From a virus, in IMG/VR virus record IMGVR_UViG_3300045988_080771, positions 1 to 61,265 of that record: DNA of 61,265 bases. The stretch is one strand, 5' to 3'. Made by a program: the position numbers and the translations under genes. Shown here piece after piece: positions 1-61,265 of the stretch. How positions within the stretch are numbered: the first letter of the stretch is position 1; every line of letters begins with the position of its first letter. The notes beneath the pieces were generated by a model. It was not told where the DNA came from and ran no database searches. It saw nothing but the letters and a program-made list of their open reading frames with translations.

Positions 1-119
1 ATTTTTTTTTTTATGCCTCGCGAAAGAAACATGGTTTTTAATGAAAAAGTAAACTACTATAAAAGGAGTTATTATGACTTGTAATCTTGACACTGGACAT
101 GATTTTATCGAAGTTCAGA
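1..119. repeat. Terminal overlap: 1-119 is identical to 61147-61265 (unit genome length 61146 bp)
   Basis: The same string (a + 11 t + atgcctcgcgaaagaaac ... gaagttcaga) was read at both ends, at a constant offset of 61146. Confidence 0.95.
18..45 (+). promoter_or_regulatory. Conserved early promoter-like motif PE-1
   Basis: tcgcgaaagaaacatggtttttaatgaa; follows a T-run; AAGGAG and the ATG at 74 lie 29 nt downstream. Confidence 0.6.
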
Positions 120-625: not shown

Positions 626-627
626 GC

Positions 628-655
628 TCGCGAGAAAATCATAGCCTTTAATGAA
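628..655 (+). promoter_or_regulatory. PE-3 (no ORF downstream)
   Basis: tcgcgagaaaatcatagcctttaatgaa; no RBS or ORF before the next promoter copy at 777. Confidence 0.55.
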
Positions 656-775
656 ATACTAGAGTGTATAACCAAAACACATTTGCTGCCAAGCCAAATC
701 GTAATAGCTTATCGGCAGAGGCGAATTAGACGGTCGCCCCGGAGTAAGCAACTTGAACATTTCACTTTATTTTTT
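656..775 (+). ncRNA. candidate small non-coding RNA or long leader transcribed from PE-3
   Basis: 120 nt with no RBS or ORF. Hairpins at 686-718 (ctgccaagc/gctt..ggcag) and 720-738 (ggcga/tcgcc). Ends in the T-run at 766-775. Confidence 0.3.
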
Positions 776-2759: not shown

Positions 2760-3257
2760 ATGCGTGTTTTGAGGATACTCGTCTATTATATTTTTGTGCC
2801 TAGAATCATTCCGGATTGGGATCTGTATAATAAATTCTGTGATGATTGTGTGGATAACAATGAAGATTTCCGCATGATCAGAATCGGATATTTGATGGAA
2901 CCTCAGAAACTATGGGTTCTTGATAAGTGTTTCCCAGAACTTATGAATACATTAAGAACATCAATAAATACATATTTTGATTATCGAAACAATTGGATAC
3001 CAATCGAGATGTTTGATTATAGTCAGCCATTCGAGAATATTGTTCGAGAATTCGATCGATTAAAAGAAAAGCATATTCTATGGATTAATTATACAGATTT
3101 GATTGCTTTATATGCTCCATATCTTTATGCCGCTCTCATTTCATTCTCGTATAAATTCCACGCATATGAGGATGCGTATGGCTTTGAAACATGCAGAGCA
3201 GATACAGCTGGTACACCAATCAAACGCGAAAAAATCATAGTCCTTAATGAAGTATAA
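2760..3257 (+). CDS. hypothetical protein (165 aa)
   Basis: RBS aaaggag; its last 11 codons are encoded by promoter copy PE-9. Confidence 0.75.
   Translation: MRVLRILVYYIFVPRIIPDWDLYNKFCDDCVDNNEDFRMIRIGYLMEPQKLWVLDKCFPELMNTLRTSINTYFDYRNNWIPIEMFDYSQPFENIVREFDRLKEKHILWINYTDLIALYAPYLYAALISFSYKFHAYEDAYGFETCRADTAGTPIKREKIIVLNEV
3224..3251 (+). promoter_or_regulatory. PE-9 (embedded in the 3' end of the upstream CDS)
   Basis: acgcgaaaaaatcatagtccttaatgaa; ATG at 3278. Confidence 0.6.
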
Positions 3258-3477: not shown

Positions 3478-3504
3478 CGCGTAATAATCTTCGCCCTTAA
3501 TGAA
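3477..3504 (+). promoter_or_regulatory. PE-10
   Basis: tcgcgtaataatcttcgcccttaatgaa; ATG at 3518. Confidence 0.55.
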
Positions 3505-8462: not shown

Positions 8463-9377
8463 ATGGACATCAAGTCTATGATCGTATCCAAGGCTTCTCG
8501 AGCTGGATTGGTGCTTAAGAAAAATTCACCTGCTATTCTCACTGGCGTTGGTGTAGTGGCTGGTGTAGCTGCAACTGGCTTCGCAGTATATTCTACGCTG
8601 AAACTCGATGGTGTGGTTACTGAGCACAATATTCGAGTCCAGCGCATTGAAAAGAACTATCGTAAGGCTCAGGATCCGGATACGGATATTGTCATCAGTG
8701 ATGATGATTACAAGCGTCAGATCGTTCAGCAGCATGTGTGGCTTGGTCTCTCTGTGACTGAGCTATATTTGCCGTCTATCGCATTCACTGCAGTGGCAAT
8801 TGCCTGCACCCTCAGTGCACATAATATTCTCTCGAAGCGTAATGCAGCTCTGACGGCAACAGTATCTATGCTTGCTGAGAAGTTGGCTGATTATCGAGCT
8901 CGTGTTGTTGAGAAATACGGTGCTGATATTGATCGCGAACTGTATCACGGAATCGAAGAAGTCGAAACCACCGATTCAGATGGAAAGACTCACACTGAGA
9001 AAGAAGCTCAAGACAATATTCCTGGATTCTCTCGGTTCTTCGATGAGTATAGTGTTTATTGGGATCGCGATCCTGGTCTGAATGTTGCTCATGTCCGTGC
9101 AACTCTCACGAATCTGAATCAGGAATTGATGGCAAAAGGTCATGTATTCCTGAATGATGCGTATCGTGCTCTTGGTCTTTCAGATACTCCAGCAGGTTCC
9201 GTTATGGGATGGATCTATGACAAAGAGCATCCGGATACTGTGATCGACTTTGGTACCAATCTCGGAACCAATACCGATGATCCGTGGGACTTCGTGCACG
9301 ATTGCCCATGGGATGGTAAGATGGGCATCAAGCTTGAGTTCAATGTCATGCCTGAGCCAATCTACAACCAGATCTGA
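8463..9377 (+). CDS. membrane-anchored protein (304 aa), paralog of 5658..6407
   Basis: Contains KKNSPAILTGVGVVAGVAATGFAV plus a second TM segment; RBS taaggag. Confidence 0.75.
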   Translation: MDIKSMIVSKASRAGLVLKKNSPAILTGVGVVAGVAATGFAVYSTLKLDGVVTEHNIRVQRIEKNYRKAQDPDTDIVISDDDYKRQIVQQHVWLGLSVTELYLPSIAFTAVAIACTLSAHNILSKRNAALTATVSMLAEKLADYRARVVEKYGADIDRELYHGIEEVETTDSDGKTHTEKEAQDNIPGFSRFFDEYSVYWDRDPGLNVAHVRATLTNLNQELMAKGHVFLNDAYRALGLSDTPAGSVMGWIYDKEHPDTVIDFGTNLGTNTDDPWDFVHDCPWDGKMGIKLEFNVMPEPIYNQI

Positions 9378-24236: not shown

Positions 24237-24243
24237 TAATTTT

Positions 24244-24368: not shown

Positions 24369-27344
24369 ATGAACTTTGTTGGCCAACAAGAAACTTATTC
24401 CGACGATTTGAACGAAGTAGACAATTATATCGAGCACTACGGAACTCCTCATTCTGGAGCCGTCCCGCATTCTGGACGATATCCTTGGGGTTCTGGTGAT
24501 TCCCGTTTCAAAGATGCGGGAAGTTTTCTAAGCCGATATCATGAACTACGAAAGTCTGGTATGTCTGATGCTCAAGCTGCGAAAGCTTTAGGTATGACTA
24601 CCAATCAGATTCGTGCATATCGTTCCATCGCTACCAATCAAGAGCGCGCCGCACTTTCTGCTAAAGCATATAAGCTTAAGGAACGTGGTTGGGGTGCTAC
24701 CGCTATTGCTAAAAAGCTTTCCGAAAGTGAAGGGCGAGAGATCAATGAGTCGACCGTCCGTTCTCTTTTGGATCCTTCTCGTAAAGCTCGAATGGATTCA
24801 ACTACTCAACTTGCGGAGTCTCTTAAGAAGACAATCCCTGAAGGTGGAGCAGTTTCAATCGGTAAGGGTGACGAGCTATTTCTTGGTGTAACCGCGGACA
24901 AATTGAAAGTCGCTACGACTATGCTTGAGTCCGAAGGATATCAAGTAAAGAATCTTTACGTTGATCAGCTTGGAATGAAGGGCAAGAAAGTTACTGTTAA
25001 AGTGCTTGCTGCCCCTGGAGCAAAGCTGGACGATCTTTATAACAATCCAGACAAAGTTGCATTCATTGCTAAGTCAGAACCAATAGCTGAAGCTAATGAT
25101 CTTGGATTAAAACCACCAGTTGCTGTAAAGTCATCTCGTGTCGCCGTTCGTTATGGAGATAAAGGCGGTGTCGAGAAAGATGGCACTATGGAGATTAATC
25201 CTCAAGCTGTTGATCTTCGTCTTTCACCTAAAGGTGTTGATAAGAAATACGCCCAGGTTCGAATCTCTGTTGATGGCACCCATTACTTAAAGGGTATGGC
25301 CGTTTATGGTGATCCTAAATCATTCCCTCCTGGTGTTGACATCATATTTAACACTAACAAAAATAGCAGCACTCCAAAAATGGATGTGTTCAAGAAGATG
25401 AAGGATGATCCCGATAATCCATTCGGTGCAACCGTACGACAGTATGATTACATTGATCCAAAGACTGGAAAGACTAAACAATCTCCAATCAATCTTGTGA
25501 ATGATGAAGGTACTTGGTCTGAATGGAGTCGTAATCTTCCTTCTCAGGTTCTTTCGAAGCAGTCTGAGGCATTGGCTAAACGACAGCTTGGATGGGCTTA
25601 CGATCGTTACAAAATGGAATATGATGAGATTAATTCTCTGACTAATCCAGTGGTTAAACGAAAGTTGATGAAAGAGTTCTCTGATTCATGCGATTCTGCA
25701 GCAGTTCATATGAAGGCGGCTGCAATGCCTAGGCAGAGTACTCGAGTAATTCTTCCTATTCCTTCTTTGAAGGATAATGAGATCTATGCTCCTCATCTTA
25801 ACAATGGTGAGAAGGTAGTTCTTGTTCGTTTTCCACATGGCGGTCGTTTCGAAATACCTGAACTGATTGTTAATAACAACAATCGAGAAGGCAAACGAGT
25901 TCTTGGAACAAACCCTAAGGATGCTGTTGGAATCAATGCCCATGTTGCTGGAATCCTTTCAGGTGCGGATTTCGATGGTGATACTGTTCTCGTAATTCCA
26001 AATAATCGAGGAGAGTTTAAACGAAGAGATCCATTGCCTGGTCTTAAGAACTTCAATCCTAGTGAGGCATATCCAAAGTATGAAGGTATGAAAGTTATAT
26101 CCTCTCGAGAGAAACAGCTTGAGATGGGTAAAGTTTCGAACCTTATTACTGATATGACTCTCAAGGGTGCAGGATGGGATGAGATTGAACGTGCTGTCAA
26201 ACATTCTATGGTCGTGATCGATTCTGAAAAGCATGAGTTGAACTACAAACAATCTGAGAAGGACTATGGAATCCGTGCTTTGAAAGCTAAGTGGCAAGGT
26301 GGTTCTAATAAAGGTGCCTCCACTCTTATTTCGAAAGCAACATCCGATGCCCGTATCAATGAAAGAAAGCTCCGCTCTGCTAAAGATGGTGGTCCTATTG
26401 ATCCAAAGACCGGTAAGTATGTTTGGGAAGAGACTGGGTCTCATTATGAAGTGACCAAGTCCCATACAATTAAACCTTCTGATATTAAGAATGGTAAAGT
26501 AACCGACCCAGTCTCTGGTAAAAAGGTCCCCGTCTTTTCTGAGGAGACCACCACTAAGTCTGGTCGTAAGAAAGTTTCTTACTACTATGAGGCCCTTGAT
26601 TATAAAGGTGACCCCGTCTTTGATAAAAAGACCGGGGCTCGTAAACGTGGAACTAAGGCCACCACCTTTGATGATAAAGGTAACCCAATAGTTGAAACTA
26701 AATACCGCCAGGTTAAGGTACCTAAGATGTCCCTTGTGGACGATGCCCTATCTCTTTCTTCAGGTACGGGCATGGAAGAAATTTATGGTACCCATGCTAA
26801 TAAATTAAAAGCCCTTGGTAATGAAGCCCGTAAGACCTATGTCAATACAGAGGTCTTTAAGGTGGACTCAAAAGCACGTACCCAATACGCAAGCGAGGTT
26901 GCTTCTCTCAATGCTAAGCTTAATACTGCATTGAAGAACATGCCTTTGGAAAGGCGTGCGCAAATGCTTGCTAATCAACAAGTAAAAGCTCGTCAATATG
27001 ACAATCCAAATCTGGATGAAGACCAGCTTAAGCGGTTGAAACAGCAGGCCCTCCATGGTGCTCGATTGAAGGTCGGTGCCGATAAGAAGTCAGTCACAAT
27101 ACACATTACTGATGGTGAATGGAAAGCGATTCAAGATCGTGCAATTTCATCTAGCAAACTGGAAGAGATTCTAAGGTTCGCGGATGAAGATGAAGTAAAG
27201 CAACTCGCATTGCCTCGTCAAGGAGTAAAGGTTCCGCCTTACATCATTTCAAAGGCAAAAACCTTGATCAATAAAGGTTATACTGTGGCAGAAGTAGCTG
27301 ATGCAGTGGGCGTTAGTGTGTCGACTCTTGAGAAAAGTCTTTAG
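24369..27344 (+). CDS. putative single-polypeptide double-psi-beta-barrel RNA polymerase (YonO / RdRP-like) with N- and C-terminal HTH segments
   Basis: aa 261-270 RYGDKGGVEK resembles beta RHGNKGVISK. aa 484-543 VLVRFPHGGRFEI..INAHVAGILSGADFDGDTVLVIP resembles beta-prime [37 protein letters not shown]. HTH-like segments at aa 65-134 and 962-991. Confidence 0.6.
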   Translation: MNFVGQQETYSDDLNEVDNYIEHYGTPHSGAVPHSGRYPWGSGDSRFKDAGSFLSRYHELRKSGMSDAQAAKALGMTTNQIRAYRSIATNQERAALSAKAYKLKERGWGATAIAKKLSESEGREINESTVRSLLDPSRKARMDSTTQLAESLKKTIPEGGAVSIGKGDELFLGVTADKLKVATTMLESEGYQVKNLYVDQLGMKGKKVTVKVLAAPGAKLDDLYNNPDKVAFIAKSEPIAEANDLGLKPPVAVKSSRVAVRYGDKGGVEKDGTMEINPQAVDLRLSPKGVDKKYAQVRISVDGTHYLKGMAVYGDPKSFPPGVDIIFNTNKNSSTPKMDVFKKMKDDPDNPFGATVRQYDYIDPKTGKTKQSPINLVNDEGTWSEWSRNLPSQVLSKQSEALAKRQLGWAYDRYKMEYDEINSLTNPVVKRKLMKEFSDSCDSAAVHMKAAAMPRQSTRVILPIPSLKDNEIYAPHLNNGEKVVLVRFPHGGRFEIPELIVNNNNREGKRVLGTNPKDAVGINAHVAGILSGADFDGDTVLVIPNNRGEFKRRDPLPGLKNFNPSEAYPKYEGMKVISSREKQLEMGKVSNLITDMTLKGAGWDEIERAVKHSMVVIDSEKHELNYKQSEKDYGIRALKAKWQGGSNKGASTLISKATSDARINERKLRSAKDGGPIDPKTGKYVWEETGSHYEVTKSHTIKPSDIKNGKVTDPVSGKKVPVFSEETTTKSGRKKVSYYYEALDYKGDPVFDKKTGARKRGTKATTFDDKGNPIVETKYRQVKVPKMSLVDDALSLSSGTGMEEIYGTHANKLKALGNEARKTYVNTEVFKVDSKARTQYASEVASLNAKLNTALKNMPLERRAQMLANQQVKARQYDNPNLDEDQLKRLKQQALHGARLKVGADKKSVTIHITDGEWKAIQDRAISSSKLEEILRFADEDEVKQLALPRQGVKVPPYIISKAKTLINKGYTVAEVADAVGVSVSTLEKSL

Positions 27345-57928: not shown

Positions 57929-58654
57929 ATGATGAATGCAACTCCGTCTCTTGCAGACATTGCAGCAGTTACCGATGGAAATCGCAATAACGATGGATTC
58001 GGAAATGGTAACGGCTGGTGGGTCCTCATCATTCTCTTCGCCATTTTCGGTGGCTGGGGCAATGGTGCCTGGGGTCGCAATGGCACCGGCGAAGCTCCGG
58101 CATCCAATGGTGACCTCCAGCGAGGATTCGATACCCAGTCGATGCTGAATAAGCTCAATGGCATCAACAGTGGTATGTGCGATGGCTTCTATGCCATGAA
58201 TACCTCTCTGCTTCAGGGCTTCAATGCAACTCAGCAGGCCATCAATGCTGACACTGTCGCAAACATGCAGAACACCAATGCCCTTTCCACCCAGCTCGCC
58301 CAGTGCTGCTGTGAGAATCGACAGGGCCAGGCCCAGATCCAGTATGATATGGCGACGAATACCTGCGCCATTCAGAACGCGATCCAGAACCAGACTCAGC
58401 AGATCATTCAGAACGATAATGCAAACTATCGTCAGCTGCATGATGAGATCGTGGCGAATCGTATGGAGGATCTCAAGTCCAAGATTGCCGATCAGGCCCA
58501 GGAGATCAATCAGCTGAATCTGTCCGCTTCTCAGTGCCAGCAGAATGCGTATCTGATCTCCCAGCTGCGTCCGAACCCGGTTCCGGCATTCCAGGTTGCA
58601 AATCCGTTTGCTTCTATGTACACCGGTTGCTGCAATAACAACGTCGCTATTTGA
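57929..58654 (+). CDS. membrane-anchored Gln/Asn/Cys-rich protein (241 aa)
   Basis: RBS taaggag; Gly/Trp-flanked TM helix GNGNGWWVLIILFAIFGGWGNGAWG; CCC and CC motifs. Confidence 0.7.
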   Translation: MMNATPSLADIAAVTDGNRNNDGFGNGNGWWVLIILFAIFGGWGNGAWGRNGTGEAPASNGDLQRGFDTQSMLNKLNGINSGMCDGFYAMNTSLLQGFNATQQAINADTVANMQNTNALSTQLAQCCCENRQGQAQIQYDMATNTCAIQNAIQNQTQQIIQNDNANYRQLHDEIVANRMEDLKSKIADQAQEINQLNLSASQCQQNAYLISQLRPNPVPAFQVANPFASMYTGCCNNNVAI

Positions 58655-59535: not shown

Positions 59536-59889
59536 ATGGACTTGGTGGATCATGAATTAATGATAACCATCATCACCATTGTTGGAAGTGTGCTAGCCTC
59601 TTCAGGTTTTTGGGCATATCTGCAAAGCAGACGTGACCGAAAGAACGATAAAGACGATACCAATAAAGCCCTTACGGATCTTCTGAAGGGGCTAGCTCAT
59701 GATCGTATAGTATTTATTGGTAACACATATCTCGAGCGAGGATGGCTTACCAAAGATGAATATGACGATTTTGTTAAATATTTATATGAACCCTACGAAC
59801 GTGTTGGGGGCAATGGGATGGCGAGAAAGGTCATGAGAGAAGTTGAGAATCTTCCATTGACCGAACCCGAAACGAAAGGAAGAAAATGA
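59536..59889 (+). CDS. N-terminally membrane-anchored protein (117 aa), lysis-module candidate
   Basis: TM helix MITIITIVGSVLASSGFWAYL; RBS aggagg. Confidence 0.6.
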   Translation: MDLVDHELMITIITIVGSVLASSGFWAYLQSRRDRKNDKDDTNKALTDLLKGLAHDRIVFIGNTYLERGWLTKDEYDDFVKYLYEPYERVGGNGMARKVMREVENLPLTEPETKGRK

Positions 59890-60155
59890 CGGATAATGAT
59901 TTTGAGAATGACAAAGATGAAACTCCCGATATTCGCGGACTCTTTGGGATGACTGACAAAGGCTATAATATTCTGAAGTGGATCGTTCAGTATATTCTGC
60001 CGGCTTTGAATACTCTTATTCTGGCTCTTGGTTCCATTTGGAATTGGGATGCGACTGTTCCGATTGCAGCTACCATTGCTGCATTTGATGTGTTCCTTGG
60101 AGTCATTCTGGGGATTAGTTCCAGTCAGTATAAGAAGAATCTTGCAGATAACTGA
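59886..60155 (+). CDS. holin-like membrane protein (89 aa, 2 TM helices)
   Basis: ILKWIVQYILPALNTLILALGSIW and IAATIAAFDVFLGVILGI; overlaps the upstream stop (ATGA). Confidence 0.45.
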   Translation: MTDNDFENDKDETPDIRGLFGMTDKGYNILKWIVQYILPALNTLILALGSIWNWDATVPIAATIAAFDVFLGVILGISSSQYKKNLADN

Positions 60156-60195: not shown

Positions 60196-60441
60196 ATGAC
60201 TAAAAACATTAAAAAACACTTTATCCATTTGACTATCAAGTCTTGGTTTAAGGATATTTATCCGGATGTATTTACAACACTGGAAACCTATCTGGATTCC
60301 AATCCTGATGTCTATGCATATTCAGTTGATGAAATCCCGATGTGTAAATCTGGAACATGCATCCTACGATACGATATCCTCTGTGATAACCAACAAGCTG
60401 GTTACATTATGGACGATTTAAAGTGGTTCTTAAATAAGTAA
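60196..60441 (+). CDS. hypothetical early protein (81 aa)
   Basis: RBS gaaaggag; ORF track. Confidence 0.7.
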   Translation: MTKNIKKHFIHLTIKSWFKDIYPDVFTTLETYLDSNPDVYAYSVDEIPMCKSGTCILRYDILCDNQQAGYIMDDLKWFLNK

Positions 60442-60463
60442 TCTGTTGATTCCTACAGTCATT

Positions 60464-60500
60464 AAGAGCTCGTGATAAAATCATGGGCTCTTATTTTTTT
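60464..60500 (+). terminator. intrinsic terminator (AGAGCTCRTGA family)
   Basis: aagagctcgtga-taaaa-tcatgggctctt followed by a T8 run. Confidence 0.8.
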
Positions 60501-60502
60501 CT

Positions 60503-60530
60503 TCGCGTTAAAATCATAGCTTATAATGAA
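60503..60530 (+). promoter_or_regulatory. PE-18 (drives the tRNA-like RNA)
   Basis: tcgcgttaaaatcatagcttataatgaa. Confidence 0.55.
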
Positions 60531-60532
60531 AA

Positions 60533-60627
60533 GAATGTGTTAAGCAGACATAATCACACAAAGGAAATTGTAAGTCAAGACCTAGCAATAGGCCGTCTGA
60601 TTCCAGGTTCGAACCCTGGCACATTTT
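60533..60627 (+). ncRNA. tRNA-like small RNA (acceptor stem + canonical T-arm; no canonical D or anticodon arms)
   Basis: 7-bp stem gaatgtg (60533-39) / cacattt (60620-26). T-arm ccagg-ttcgaac-cctgg (60603-19). Internal helix cagac (60545-49) / gtctg (60595-99). GCAA-loop hairpin ccta-gcaa-tagg (60581-92). No ORF or RBS. Confidence 0.5.
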
Positions 60628-60630
60628 TAG

Positions 60631-60675
60631 CCCAATTGTAGAATCAAATAGATTATACATTGGGTTTATTTTTTC
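60631..60675 (+). terminator. intrinsic terminator after the tRNA-like RNA
   Basis: cccaat(t)gta ... tacattggg followed by tttatttttt. Confidence 0.65.
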
Positions 60676-60676
60676 T

Positions 60677-60704
60677 TCGCATCAAAAACATCGCATATAA
60701 TGAA
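60677..60704 (+). promoter_or_regulatory. PE-19 (TCGCAT variant with a TATAAT -10)
   Basis: tcgcatcaaaaacatcgcatataatgaa; ATG at 60729. Confidence 0.5.
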
Positions 60705-60728
60705 AGGAAAACTTTAAAAGGAGTTATC

Positions 60729-61100
60729 ATGAACGACATTTATGCAAACATTGTCATCACCGACATCAAAACCGGAGAGATTATATCTCAAGATCGAATC
60801 GGTTGGAACCTGGTGGCTAATGCTTTCGTAATTGGTCACAATTGGATTGCCAATCAATTCAATGAACAAATTGATTCTTGGAATTCAGAATTCGATAAAA
60901 ATCACCCAAATATTAGTGATTATGCGAATAATGAAGAATATGAACAGTTTATCATTGAACATTGGAATAAAATTGTTGACCAGTACAACGAAGCAATGGC
61001 TGGATATGGTTCAACTGCCAAATTCGAAATCGAAGATCTCAACGAAGTGATGTTTGATGGCTTTGGCCATAAAGTAGAAATGAAACTTATAATGAAGTAA
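60729..61100 (+). CDS. hypothetical early protein (123 aa)
   Basis: Internal ATG 7 nt after aaaggag. The track start at 60660 would lie inside the terminator and promoter. Confidence 0.7.
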   Translation: MNDIYANIVITDIKTGEIISQDRIGWNLVANAFVIGHNWIANQFNEQIDSWNSEFDKNHPNISDYANNEEYEQFIIEHWNKIVDQYNEAMAGYGSTAKFEIEDLNEVMFDGFGHKVEMKLIMK

Positions 61101-61115
61101 TCATTTTCAACCAAT

Positions 61116-61160
61116 AAAGAACTCGTGACAAAATCATGGGTTCTTTATTTTTTTTTTTAT
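61116..61160 (+). terminator. intrinsic terminator (AGAGCTCRTGA family)
   Basis: aaagaactcgtga-caaaa-tcatgggttcttt followed by a+T11; the T-run is the same sequence as positions 1-12. Confidence 0.8.
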
Positions 61161-61265
61161 GCCTCGCGAAAGAAACATGGTTTTTAATGAAAAAGTAAAC
61201 TACTATAAAAGGAGTTATTATGACTTGTAATCTTGACACTGGACATGATTTTATCGAAGTTCAGA
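61147..61265. repeat. second copy of the terminal overlap (contains the PE-1 duplicate at 61164-61191 and the first 46 nt of the gene at 74)
   Basis: Identical to 1-119. Confidence 0.95.

What the first reader, a model, noticed from the sequence alone, without database searches (positions are those of the whole stretch)
60503..60675. Promoter-driven, terminator-bounded tRNA-like RNA lacking D and anticodon arms
PE-18 is followed by no RBS or ORF. About 3 nt downstream of PE-18 begins a ~95-nt segment with these elements:

- a 7-bp acceptor-like stem (60533-39 with 60620-26)
- a textbook T-arm, CCAGG-TTCGAAC-CCTGG (60603-19)
- an internal helix (60545-49 / 60595-99) enclosing a GCAA-tetraloop hairpin (60581-92)

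An intrinsic terminator follows at 60631-60675.

I could not fold a canonical D-arm or a 7-nt anticodon loop, and no CCA is encoded. It therefore looks like a tRNA mimic (mini-helix, TLS, or Y-RNA/tmRNA-like tRNA domain) rather than a decoding tRNA. Possible roles include decoying tRNA-targeting defence nucleases, acting as a CCA-adding or RNase P substrate, or priming.
Basis: partly seen in the sequence, partly recalled or inferred. Interest (0 to 1): 0.65.

Follow-up and report, generated by a model that had tools for sequence, protein, structure and literature searches.

The report
Phage small RNA with tRNA-like arm
A human-gut phage carries a stand-alone early gene for a ~100-nt RNA that has a textbook tRNA T-arm and a closing stem but cannot decode, and related phages carry a range of similar anticodon-less tRNA look-alikes, which suggests an undescribed use of tRNA mimicry by these viruses.

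Summary
A strict T-arm plus 7-bp closing stem is expected 0.004 times per shuffled genome. ARAGORN and Rfam find no tRNA, tmRNA or other known family.

The element is a self-contained promoter-RNA-terminator cassette in the early region of a circular 61.1-kb siphophage related to Faecalibacterium phage FP_oengus. Eight copies exist in close relatives.
- The RNA body is 96% identical among copies (interior 98.5%), against about 81% for its promoter and terminator.
- The T-stem shows one compensatory change.
- The cassette changes position among the early cassettes and is missing from two near-identical phages.

Caveats: variation is too low to test the inner helices. The "7-bp acceptor" is kept in only 2 of 8 copies. 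The others keep a 9-11-bp bulged closing stem, and only if a 5-nt leader is transcribed.

Related phages, including FP_oengus itself, carry covariation-supported tRNA-shaped RNAs behind the same promoter type. These have truncated or tetraloop "anticodon" arms, conserved T-loops and U-tracts.

My best reading is a non-decoding tRNA top-half mimic acting in trans, as a decoy or competitor for a tRNA-recognising factor. The function is inferred, not shown. It is a new variant of a known kind, of moderate to high interest.

The parts
60502..60531 (+). The -10-like TATAAT lies at 60522-60527.
   Evidence: The pattern has 7 matches in the window against 0 expected. The same motif precedes the other early cassettes and occurs in Bifidobacterium phage BitterVaud1.
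60528..60532 (+). Possible 5' leader GAAAA, which can pair with the U-run after the closing stem.
   Evidence: With this leader included, all 8 copies fold a 9-11-bp closing stem. The transcription start itself is inferred, not measured.
60533..60539 (+). 5' strand of the closing, acceptor-like stem (GAATGTG).
   Evidence: It pairs with 60620-60626. Positions 2 and 3 are mispaired in 6 of 8 copies.
60545..60549 (+). 5' strand of the inner helix (CAGAC), which pairs with 60595-60599.
   Evidence: It is present in the minimum-free-energy and consensus folds. It is invariant in all copies, so it is untested by covariation.
60558..60571 (+). Weak 4-bp hairpin ACAA-AGGAAA-UUGU with a GG-containing loop. 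It is a possible D-loop analogue.
   Evidence: It appears in the minimum-free-energy fold. It is invariant and AU-rich, and the analogy is an inference only.
60579..60594 (+). Tetraloop hairpin GACCUA-GCAA-UAGGCC, in the position of the shortened anticodon arm of relatives.
   Evidence: The stem is kept in all copies, and a C-to-U change turns an A.C mismatch into A-U. The loop is GCAA, GUAA or UUAC.
60595..60599 (+). 3' strand of the inner helix (GTCTG).
   Evidence: As for 60545-60549.
60603..60619 (+). T-arm: a 5-bp stem CCAGG/CCTGG with the T-loop TTCGAAC.
   Evidence: The loop is invariant. The third stem pair changes A-U to G-C on both sides in 6 copies. A strict T-arm is expected 0.26 times per genome.
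60620..60626 (+). 3' strand of the closing stem (CACATTT), running into the U-run at 60624-60628.
   Evidence: The T-arm plus CACATTTTTA was also flagged as terminator-like.
60629..60675 (+). Intrinsic terminator: a long imperfect hairpin followed by UAUUUUUU.
   Evidence: It is seen in the fold. The hairpin arms change in a compensating way among copies, and the region is only 81% identical among them.

Best explanation
The element is a real, independently transcribed early gene for a small non-coding RNA.
- It is about 100 nt long to the first U-run and about 145 nt to the terminator.
- It folds into a three-way junction. A closing stem formed by the 5' and 3' ends stacks on a canonical tRNA T-arm, and a long arm carries two small hairpins.
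- It cannot decode.

It is the most divergent representative of a heterogeneous set of anticodon-less, tRNA-shaped RNAs. FP_oengus-like gut siphophages place these directly behind their early promoters.

The most likely mode of action is inferred, not shown. The RNA would present a tRNA 'top half' (T-loop elbow plus acceptor-like helix) in trans to a protein or RNP that recognises tRNA by shape. Candidates are RNase P, RNase Z, CCA-adding enzyme, or a tRNA-targeting toxin or defence enzyme. The RNA would then act as a decoy or competitor, or use those enzymes for its own maturation.

Shown here: the sequence features, the cassette architecture, purifying selection on the RNA body, T-stem compensation, and the existence of structured tRNA-like relatives.
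Inferred: transcription, the exact ends, the tertiary fold, the partner and the benefit to the phage.
For: - All features are present, and the strict T-arm plus stem is expected 0.004 times per shuffled genome.
- It is an ORF-less unit between the repeated early promoter and a terminator.
- Eight copies exist. The body is 96.2% identical and the interior 98.5%, against 81.7% for the promoter, 81.1% for the terminator and 86-89% for adjacent coding DNA.
- The T-stem A-U changes to G-C on both sides while the T-loop stays invariant.
- A closing stem is retained in every copy if the leader is included. In that fold the U70-to-C change creates a G1-C70 pair.
- The cassette moves as a unit among the early cassettes and is absent from near-identical phages, so it behaves like an accessory gene.
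- Relatives carry tRNA-shaped RNAs in the same promoter context with strong covariation. Alignment A3 has 99.3% of cells paired and 10 of 20 pairs changed on both sides. Type D has 100% paired and 6 of 22 pairs changed on both sides.
- One relative type reaches 50.2 bits on the Rfam tRNA model. FP_oengus itself has one.
- In all these types the anticodon arm is cut down to 4-6 bp with a 4-7-nt loop, while the T-loop consensus (T/C)TCRANN is kept.
Against: - There is no expression data.
- The window-type copies are too similar to test the inner helix, the GG hairpin or most of the closing stem. Only 1 pair is compensatory, and the shuffle control is not significant at 62/500.
- The canonical 7-bp acceptor is broken in 6 of 8 copies. 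The alternative closing stem is 9-11 bp, which is longer than the 12-bp acceptor-plus-T ruler used by RNase P and CCA-adding enzyme would allow without processing.
- The fold is not unusually stable (z = -0.9).
- The covariance model of the cloverleaf-like relatives scores the window element only 14 bits (E about 1.5), so common descent is not shown.
- No distant homologues were found.
- The phage encodes no recognisable tRNA-related enzyme, Ro60 or defence-related partner.
- Every tRNA-like RNA in the lineage is followed by a U-tract, which also fits a termination role.
Confidence: 0.45

Rival explanations
1. It is a regulatory or protein-binding small RNA whose functional part is the invariant 50-60-nt interior, including the exposed AAAGGAAA loop. 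On this reading it would act as a base-pairing sRNA against a host mRNA or rRNA, or as an aptamer-like protein ligand. The T-arm-like hairpin and closing stem would serve only as a stable scaffold, and the tRNA resemblance would be incidental.
For: The interior is the most conserved part (98.5% identity; 61-63 of 63 positions identical to the window). The acceptor-like stem is loosely kept. A second, unrelated ORF-less RNA cassette exists in the same early region with a covarying hairpin, so these phages do encode ordinary small RNAs.
Against: No complementary target exists in the phage genome beyond chance. No match to the inner block exists in 185,579 bacterial species genomes. The T-loop sequence is exactly the tRNA consensus and is shared, as a motif, with the clearly tRNA-shaped RNAs of relatives.
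Confidence: 0.2
2. It is a cis-acting transcription element. On this reading the tRNA-shaped fold with its purine-rich 5' strand, U-rich 3' strand and following U-tract is an unusual intrinsic terminator, attenuator or insulator, or a put-like element that modifies RNA polymerase. It would control read-through along the chain of early cassettes, and the RNA would have no role in trans.
For: All types are followed immediately by a U-tract. Types B, C, E and F lie between a promoter and the SD of the next gene with no intervening promoter. The terminator scan flags the T-arm plus CACATTTTTA. BitterVaud1 has a hairpin plus U-run leader behind the same promoter.
Against: The window cassette has its own strong terminator and is followed by a new promoter, so there is nothing downstream to attenuate. 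Termination does not need a T-loop consensus, a D-arm or an invariant 60-nt interior, and ordinary terminators in the same alignment drift freely (81% identity). The closing stems are AU-rich and therefore poor terminator stems.
Confidence: 0.15
3. It is a decaying remnant with no present function: either a pseudogene of a former phage tRNA or tRNA-like gene, or a captured 3' fragment of a host tRNA (attP-type).
For: D and anticodon arms are unrecognisable. The cassette is dispensable, being absent from L054 and L076. Integrases occur in related clades.
Against: The body is far better conserved than its flanks. The promoter and terminator are intact in all copies. The window phage has no integrase. 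No bacterial genome contains the T-arm plus 3' strand. A fragment would not carry a matching 5' strand.
Confidence: 0.08
4. It encodes a small protein from the frame that stays open across the element.
For: One frame is open for 54-78 codons in all copies, and the window has an ATG at 60483.
Against: The ATG lies inside the upstream terminator and upstream of the promoter. There is no SD, and no ATG in that frame in the seven relatives. The frame is open in all copies simply because the interior is invariant.
Confidence: 0.02

Closest known systems
Canonical tRNA (Rfam RF00005)
   Same: It has a 5-bp T-stem with a TTCGAAC T-loop abutting a 7-nt 3' strand that pairs with the 5' end. No CCA is encoded, as in many Gram-positive tRNA genes.
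   Different: There is no D-arm and no 5-bp anticodon stem with a 7-nt loop. Sixty-three nt lie between the 5' strand and the T-arm, against about 41 in a tRNA. It is not found by ARAGORN or Infernal. The closing stem is not fixed at 7 bp.
Bacterial and phage Y RNAs of the YrlA type (tRNA-mimicking domain; Chen et al. 2014, PMC4201824)
   Same: They are non-decoding RNAs with a T-arm and an acceptor-like stem, and they are also found in phages. M. smegmatis YrlA is cleaved by RNase P and receives CCA, and D. radiodurans Yrn1 has a 6-nt 'anticodon' loop. That loop resembles the 6-nt loops of types A to C here.
   Different: In Y RNAs the 5' and 3' ends form the Ro60-binding helix, and the gene lies next to rsr. 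Here the ends form the acceptor-like stem. No TROVE/Ro60 protein was found among the ORFs scanned, and there is no Rfam hit.
tRNA-like domain of tmRNA
   Same: The acceptor and T-arm are formed by the RNA ends, with no anticodon arm and a large insertion in between.
   Different: The insertion is only 63 nt, with no tag reading frame or pseudoknots. There is no G3.U70 pair and no encoded CCA. The ARAGORN tmRNA search is negative.
Processed tRNA-like small RNAs and viral tRNA-like structures (mascRNA from MALAT1, plant-virus TLS), and the pseudo-tRNA 'tRNA-Other' of Bacillus cereus (PMC3399842)
   Same: They have tRNA shape without decoding and are recognised by tRNA-processing or tRNA-binding factors. 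Comparison is from my own knowledge and the titles and abstracts listed.
   Different: Those are eukaryotic or RNA-virus elements, or a chromosomal bacterial gene. None is a promoter-driven early gene of a dsDNA phage, and there is no sequence relationship.
Anticodon-less tRNA-shaped RNAs of FP_oengus-like phages
   Same: They share the same early-promoter motif directly upstream, a closing stem made from a purine-rich 5' strand and a U-rich 3' strand, a T-arm with the T-loop consensus, a U-tract after the stem, and an anticodon arm reduced to a short hairpin that is often a tetraloop. Types A and D are, like the window element, stand-alone cassettes.
   Different: Those keep a recognisable D-arm (UAGCUCA..GGUAGAGC) and are 70-110 nt long. 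The window element has no D-arm and scores only 14 bits with their covariance model, so homology is not demonstrated.

Membership tests
tRNA (RF00005) | Recognised as a cloverleaf by ARAGORN or the Infernal tRNA model | tested here: not met
   ARAGORN finds 0 genes in the window. Rfam finds 0 at gathering score and no tRNA-clan hit at E<=10 on 60400-60760.
tRNA (RF00005) | 5-bp T-stem with a 7-nt T-loop (T54 T55 C56 R57 A58), directly joined to the 3' acceptor strand | tested here: met
   CCAGG-TTCGAAC-CCTGG is followed at once by CACATTT. The loop is invariant and the stem compensates in relatives.
tRNA (RF00005) | 7-bp acceptor stem, conserved | tested here: inconclusive
   It is 7 bp in the window and L005. 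Two adjacent mismatches occur in L001, L002, L003, L006, L007 and L077. Closure is kept only as a bulged 9-11-bp stem with the leader included.
tRNA (RF00005) | D-arm with G18G19, and a 5-bp anticodon stem with a 7-nt loop | tested here: not met
   No such arms can be placed in the 63-nt insert. Only a weak 4-bp hairpin with a GG loop and a tetraloop hairpin are present.
tRNA (RF00005) | 3' CCA addition and aminoacylation | not testable with these tools
   CCA is not encoded. Testing needs RNA 3'-end sequencing and charging assays.
tmRNA | Tag-peptide reading frame, pseudoknots, and G3.U70 alanine identity | tested here: not met
   The ARAGORN tmRNA search is negative. Pair 3-70 is A-U or A.C. 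The only SD-like start is TTG followed directly by TAA.
YrlA / bacterial Y RNA | Match to the Rfam model, and a Ro60 (rsr) gene nearby | tested here: not met
   There is no Rfam hit. No TROVE domain was found in the ORFs scanned with Pfam or PHROGs. Not every ORF was scanned.
   The window element scores 14 bits (E about 1.5) against 70-91 bits for members. It has no D-arm.
Intrinsic terminator | GC-containing hairpin immediately followed by a U-run | tested here: met
   This applies to the 3' module at 60629-60675. The T-arm plus CACAUUUUU is only a weak match, because a 4-nt spacer separates it from the U-run.

The most novel reading that the evidence does not exclude
FP_oengus-like phages of the human gut, whose hosts include Faecalibacterium, have evolved a family of rapidly diversifying, anticodon-less tRNA mimics. 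These are expressed from the first early promoters and act as RNA decoys. They would soak up or misdirect enzymes that attack or sense the acceptor/T-arm half of tRNA, for example nucleotidyltransferase or pyrophosphokinase toxins of abortive-infection systems, or host tRNA-processing enzymes. The window element would be a minimal 'top-half only' version of this counter-defence.
Probability: 0.15. Interest if true: 0.85.

Novelty: new variant of a known kind. Interest (0 to 1): 0.6.

Why it matters
tRNA is a major battleground between bacteria and phages. Many defence systems cut or modify tRNA, and phages answer with their own tRNAs. A phage-encoded RNA that keeps only the shape-defining top half of tRNA and discards decoding would be a different strategy: mimicry rather than replacement.

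The finding also exposes at least seven structurally distinct tRNA-shaped RNAs in a widespread human-gut phage lineage. One of these phages, FP_oengus, is in culture, so the idea can be tested directly. These RNAs are missed by standard annotation. ARAGORN calls them 'tRNA-???' or nothing, and the GenBank record of FP_oengus has no feature at that position.

If instead they are tRNA-shaped attenuators or processing signals, that would be a new type of phage gene-expression control.

Tried and rejected
- **Known RNA families.** ARAGORN and Rfam (gathering score, and E<=10 locally) gave nothing.
- **DNA similarity to GenBank phages.** No match for the window element or for type C.
- **Exact-pattern scans of IMG/VR.** The first, fully specified 23-mer found nothing. 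Two later patterns found only the six close relatives plus chance hits.
- **Host tRNA fragment (attP) idea.** There were 0 matches to the T-arm plus 3' strand in 185,579 species genomes, and the window has no integrase. Rejected for the window element.
- **Host mimic or host copy of the inner block.** 0 matches.
- **Antisense target within the phage.** Only chance-level 9-11-mers.
- **Covariance model R2 of the window type.** A search over 2.1 Mb of related loci found no distant homologues, so covariation could not be improved.
- **Homology to the cloverleaf-like types through model R1.** Only 14 bits.
- **Linked proteins.** Neighbouring ORFs, the ORFs downstream of the tRNA-like leaders, and the larger unannotated ORFs have no informative Pfam or PHROG hits. 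No tRNA enzymes, RNA ligase, Ro60 or CCA-adding enzyme were found.
- **The search for related loci with the DUF6353 protein alone.** This reached only close relatives.
- **Small-protein reading.** Rejected.
- **GNRA tetraloop as a conserved feature.** Rejected, because L077 has UUAC.
- **G3.U70 alanine identity.** It is present in types A and B but not in B2, C or the window type, so it is not a family feature.
- **Literature.** No description of these RNAs was found. The supplements of the IMG/VR structured-RNA survey are not held.

Full report
**What is in the sequence.**
The window is a circular phage genome: the first and last 119 bases are identical, giving a unit of 61,146 bp. All genes are on the + strand.

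At 60502-60531 lies one copy of a repeated motif, TTCGCG..AAAATCAtAG..TATAATGAAA. It precedes most small early genes. The pattern has 7 matches in the window against 0 in shuffles, and further copies are seen.

Downstream there is no Shine-Dalgarno-led ORF. Instead the sequence contains:
- GAATGTG (60533-39), which pairs with CACATTT (60620-26);
- CAGAC (60545-49), which pairs with GTCTG (60595-99);
- the hairpin CCTA-GCAA-TAGG (60581-92);
- the T-arm CCAGG-TTCGAAC-CCTGG (60603-19), directly abutting the 3' strand;
- a long hairpin plus U-run at about 60629-60675 (fold).

**Is it more than chance?**
A relaxed search (G.U allowed, loose T-loop) finds such a T-arm plus 7-bp stem 0.61 times per shuffled genome, so the bare motif is not remarkable. 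With the actual quality of the element (all-Watson-Crick T-stem, TTCRANY loop, at most 1 G.U in the stem), a T-arm alone is expected 0.26 times and the combination 0.004 times per genome. It is observed once, here.

Its position inside an ORF-free promoter-terminator unit adds to this. Folding energy alone is unimpressive, with z = -0.9 for the 95 nt.

**Not a known RNA.**
ARAGORN finds no tRNA or tmRNA in the window. Rfam finds nothing at gathering score. At E<=10 on 60400-60760 it finds only chance-level hits, none of them tRNA, tmRNA or Y RNA. GenBank phages have no similar DNA.

**Homologues and selection.**
Loci related through the 241-aa late protein (57929-58654) were collected from IMG/VR (L001-L060) and from human-gut metagenomes (L076-L155). 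The element recurs in seven of them at about 90% identity: L001, L002, L003, L005, L006, L007 and L077.

Among seven of the copies the mean pairwise identity by region is:

| Region | Identity |
|---|---|
| Promoter | 81.7% |
| RNA body | 96.2% |
| 63-nt interior | 98.5% |
| Terminator | 81.1% |

The adjacent coding DNA is 86-89% identical. The RNA body is therefore under purifying selection.

The informative substitutions are few.
- The third T-stem pair changes A-U to G-C on both sides.
- The hairpin gains an A-U pair.
- The tetraloop reads GCAA, GUAA or UUAC, so GNRA is not conserved.
- The inner helix and the GG hairpin never vary, so they are untested.
- The shuffle control is not significant (62/500).

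**The 'acceptor' stem.**
In six of the eight copies positions 2 and 70 are both C, which breaks two adjacent pairs of the 7-bp stem.

Suppose transcription starts right after TATAAT. This is suggested by the cassette at 3478, where the SD begins 4 nt after the motif. The 5-nt leader GAAAA can then pair with the U-run, and every copy folds a 9-11-bp closing stem. In the six variant copies this stem is UGUG/CACA, a CA bulge, and then GAAAAG/CUUUUU, in which the U70-to-C change makes a G1-C70 pair.

Closure of the structure is thus maintained, but not as a canonical 7-bp acceptor stem. The transcription start is inferred.

**Behaviour as a gene cassette.**
The unit (promoter, RNA, terminator) sits at different places among the first early cassettes:
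- window: holin - orf81 - element - orf123;
- L001: holin - orf123 - element;
- L002 and L007: holin - element - orf81b;
- L003 and L006: holin - orf123 - orf77 - element.

It is absent from L054 and L076, which are otherwise very close; the 241-aa protein of L076 is 100% identical. This is the behaviour of an accessory gene, not of a fixed cis site.

**The phage.**
PHROG and Pfam hits give the following:
- a primase-polymerase;
- a YonO-like 'RdRP-type' RNA polymerase (24369-27344);
- terminase, portal, capsid protease and tail proteins;
- an endolysin, and a holin at 59886-60155 directly before the early region.

The closest isolates are Bifidobacterium phage BitterVaud1 (DNA polymerase 62.5% identical) and Faecalibacterium phage FP_oengus. 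BitterVaud1 has the same promoter motif. This is the lineage described by Koert et al. (bioRxiv 10.1101/842583).

The window has no integrase. No tRNA-processing or repair enzyme and no Ro60 were found among the ORFs scanned.

**Relatives carry clear tRNA-shaped RNAs.**
Behind the same promoter type, other clades carry RNAs that fold as cloverleaves but cannot decode.

Types A, B, B2 and C have acceptor, D-arm and T-arm, but an 'anticodon' arm of 4 bp with a 6-nt U-rich loop (UUAACU, UUUAUU, UUAAUU, GUAUUU). ARAGORN calls them 'tRNA-???'. Type A reaches 50.2 bits on the Rfam tRNA model.

In their alignment 99.3% of cells are paired and 10 of 20 pairs change on both sides. Slid controls give 30-58% paired.

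Model R1 finds these types in 24 loci. It also gives weaker hits to three type-D and two type-F loci and to a few ordinary tRNAs. It finds a type-A copy in FP_oengus at 2934-3007 (77.7 bits, loop UUGAUU), where the GenBank record has no feature.

Further types are as follows.
- **Type D** (L140, L141, L131; about 105-110 nt) has an extra tetraloop-tipped hairpin before the D-arm and a 4-6-bp tetraloop hairpin as its 'anticodon' arm. All 22 pairs are paired and 6 change on both sides among three sequences.
- **Type E** (L149) has a D-like hairpin and a 7-bp 'anticodon' arm with a 4-nt loop.
- **Type F** (L114, L099) has a 6-bp 'anticodon' stem with the loop AUGCGGG.

Types D, E and F do not reach the Rfam tRNA model at E<=0.05.

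Across all types the T-loop keeps (T/C)TCRANN. The 5' strand of the closing stem is purine-rich and the 3' strand U-rich, and a U-tract follows.

Types A and D are stand-alone cassettes, like the window element. Types B and E lie as leaders directly before a conserved ORF of about 74 aa that is followed by DUF6353 genes. Type C lies directly before a DUF6353 gene. Type F lies as a leader before an ORF I did not characterise.

The window element shares the architecture but not the D-arm. It scores only 14 bits with R1, so it is an analogue, or a very divergent relative, rather than a proven homologue.

**Mechanism.**
What selection keeps in this lineage is the top half of tRNA: the closing stem, the T-arm with its T-loop, and usually a D-arm. 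The decoding end is dispensable and variable.

From established knowledge, the acceptor/T-arm minihelix and the elbow are what RNase P, RNase Z, CCA-adding enzyme, EF-Tu and several tRNA-targeting toxins recognise. YrlA-type Y RNAs show that such mimics are processed by RNase P and receive CCA in bacteria (PMC4201824).

I therefore favour a trans-acting, non-decoding tRNA mimic that engages a shape-recognising tRNA factor, either as a decoy or competitor or for its own maturation. I give this a confidence of about 0.45.

The sequence, cassette, conservation and family context are shown. Transcription, the ends, the tertiary fold, the partner and the benefit to the phage are inferred.

**Rivals.**
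1. *An ordinary sRNA or protein ligand whose invariant interior is the active part.* The interior is indeed the most conserved region. However, there is no target in the phage and no copy in bacterial genomes.
2. *A cis-acting terminator, attenuator or antiterminator.* U-tracts follow every type, and types B, C, E and F sit in leaders. However, the window cassette has its own terminator and nothing to regulate, and termination does not explain the T-loop consensus or the invariant interior.
3. *A decaying tRNA or an attP fragment.* This is contradicted by the conservation profile, the absence of an integrase and the absence of any matching bacterial tRNA.
4. *A small protein.* This is contradicted.

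**Comparison and novelty.**
It works most like the known non-decoding tRNA mimics: YrlA-type Y RNAs, the tmRNA tRNA-like domain, mascRNA and viral TLS, and pseudo-tRNAs. It fails the defining tests of each family (see the membership table).

I found no description of these phage RNAs in the literature.
- Cornuault et al. 2018 on FP_oengus never mention tRNA.
- Koert et al. report no tRNA genes in the related BI cluster of Streptomyces phages they describe, and their single mention of tRNA concerns only that cluster.
- A survey of structured RNAs in IMG/VR mentions tRNA-like candidates only generically.

I rate it a new variant of a known kind. The window element on its own is modestly supported. 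The lineage-wide pattern is what makes it interesting, and it is experimentally tractable through FP_oengus.

Noticed in passing
window 627-775: A second ORF-less unit: the promoter motif at 627-656, about 110 nt of RNA, then a U-run. A homologue lies at L005:7864-7982 (85% identical), directly upstream of the tRNA-like element there. Its hairpin GGCGA-AUUAGACGG-UCGCC becomes AGCAG-AUUAGAAGG-CUGCU, with 3 pairs changed on both sides, so it is probably another structured small RNA.
   Followed up: partly
L156 (NC_047916, Faecalibacterium phage FP_oengus) 2934-3007: An unannotated tRNA-shaped gene of type A, with a 4-bp 'anticodon' stem and the 6-nt loop UUGAUU, lies in a cultured phage behind the same promoter motif. 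It scores 77.7 bits with model R1, and ARAGORN calls it 'tRNA-???'.
   Followed up: yes
L013:7535-7605, L010:17526-17595, L029:17845-17916, L043:17671-17742, L141:14272-14382, L149:14119-14188, L114:13803-13882: There are at least seven structural types of anticodon-less tRNA-like RNAs in related gut phages. Some genomes carry two (types A and B2 in L015, L029, L092 and L098). Types B and E are leaders of a conserved ORF of about 74 aa followed by DUF6353 genes, type C is a leader of a DUF6353 gene, and type F is a leader of another ORF.
   Followed up: partly
window 24369-27344: A 991-aa protein matches phrog_4291 ('RNA-dependent RNA polymerase', E = 0). It is the YonO-like two-barrel RNA polymerase typical of this phage lineage. 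It is preceded by a copy of the early-promoter motif at 24243 and a leader of about 100 nt.
   Followed up: no
window 17-46, 348, 629, 1113, 1440, 1634, 3478, 18069, 24245, 60156, 60504, 60678: The early and middle promoter motif (T/C)TCGCGAAA..N..TTAATGAAA has no recognisable -35 TTGACA. It always lies after a T-rich terminator tail and is shared with BitterVaud1 and FP_oengus-like phages. It is absent from the late region at 27-60 kb. In one cassette the SD starts 4 nt after the motif, which implies a transcription start very close to TAAT.
   Followed up: partly
window 1-119 and 61147-61265: An exact 119-bp terminal overlap shows the window is a circularly closed assembly of a 61,146-bp genome. 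The early region runs across the window ends.
   Followed up: yes
L141:13201-13273 (- strand): A tRNA-Trp(CCA)-like gene lies on the opposite strand, with an encoded CCA, a TTGACA-type promoter and its own terminator. It scores 31.6 bits on the Rfam tRNA model (gathering score 29) but is not called by ARAGORN. It lies about 1 kb from the type-D RNA.
   Followed up: no
L073 (MT006236, BitterVaud1) 8787-8900: The first early promoter of this Bifidobacterium phage is followed by a leader of about 70 nt with two hairpins and a U-run before the SD. This is the same promoter - structured RNA - U-tract - gene layout, but the leader is not tRNA-shaped.
   Followed up: no
L013:5201-6415, L043:13081-14292 and others; L156:146-1387: A tyrosine integrase lies between the lysis and early modules in the clades that carry types A, B and C. 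It is absent from the window clade and from the loci with types D, E and F. Whether the type-A RNA overlaps an attP site was not tested.
   Followed up: partly
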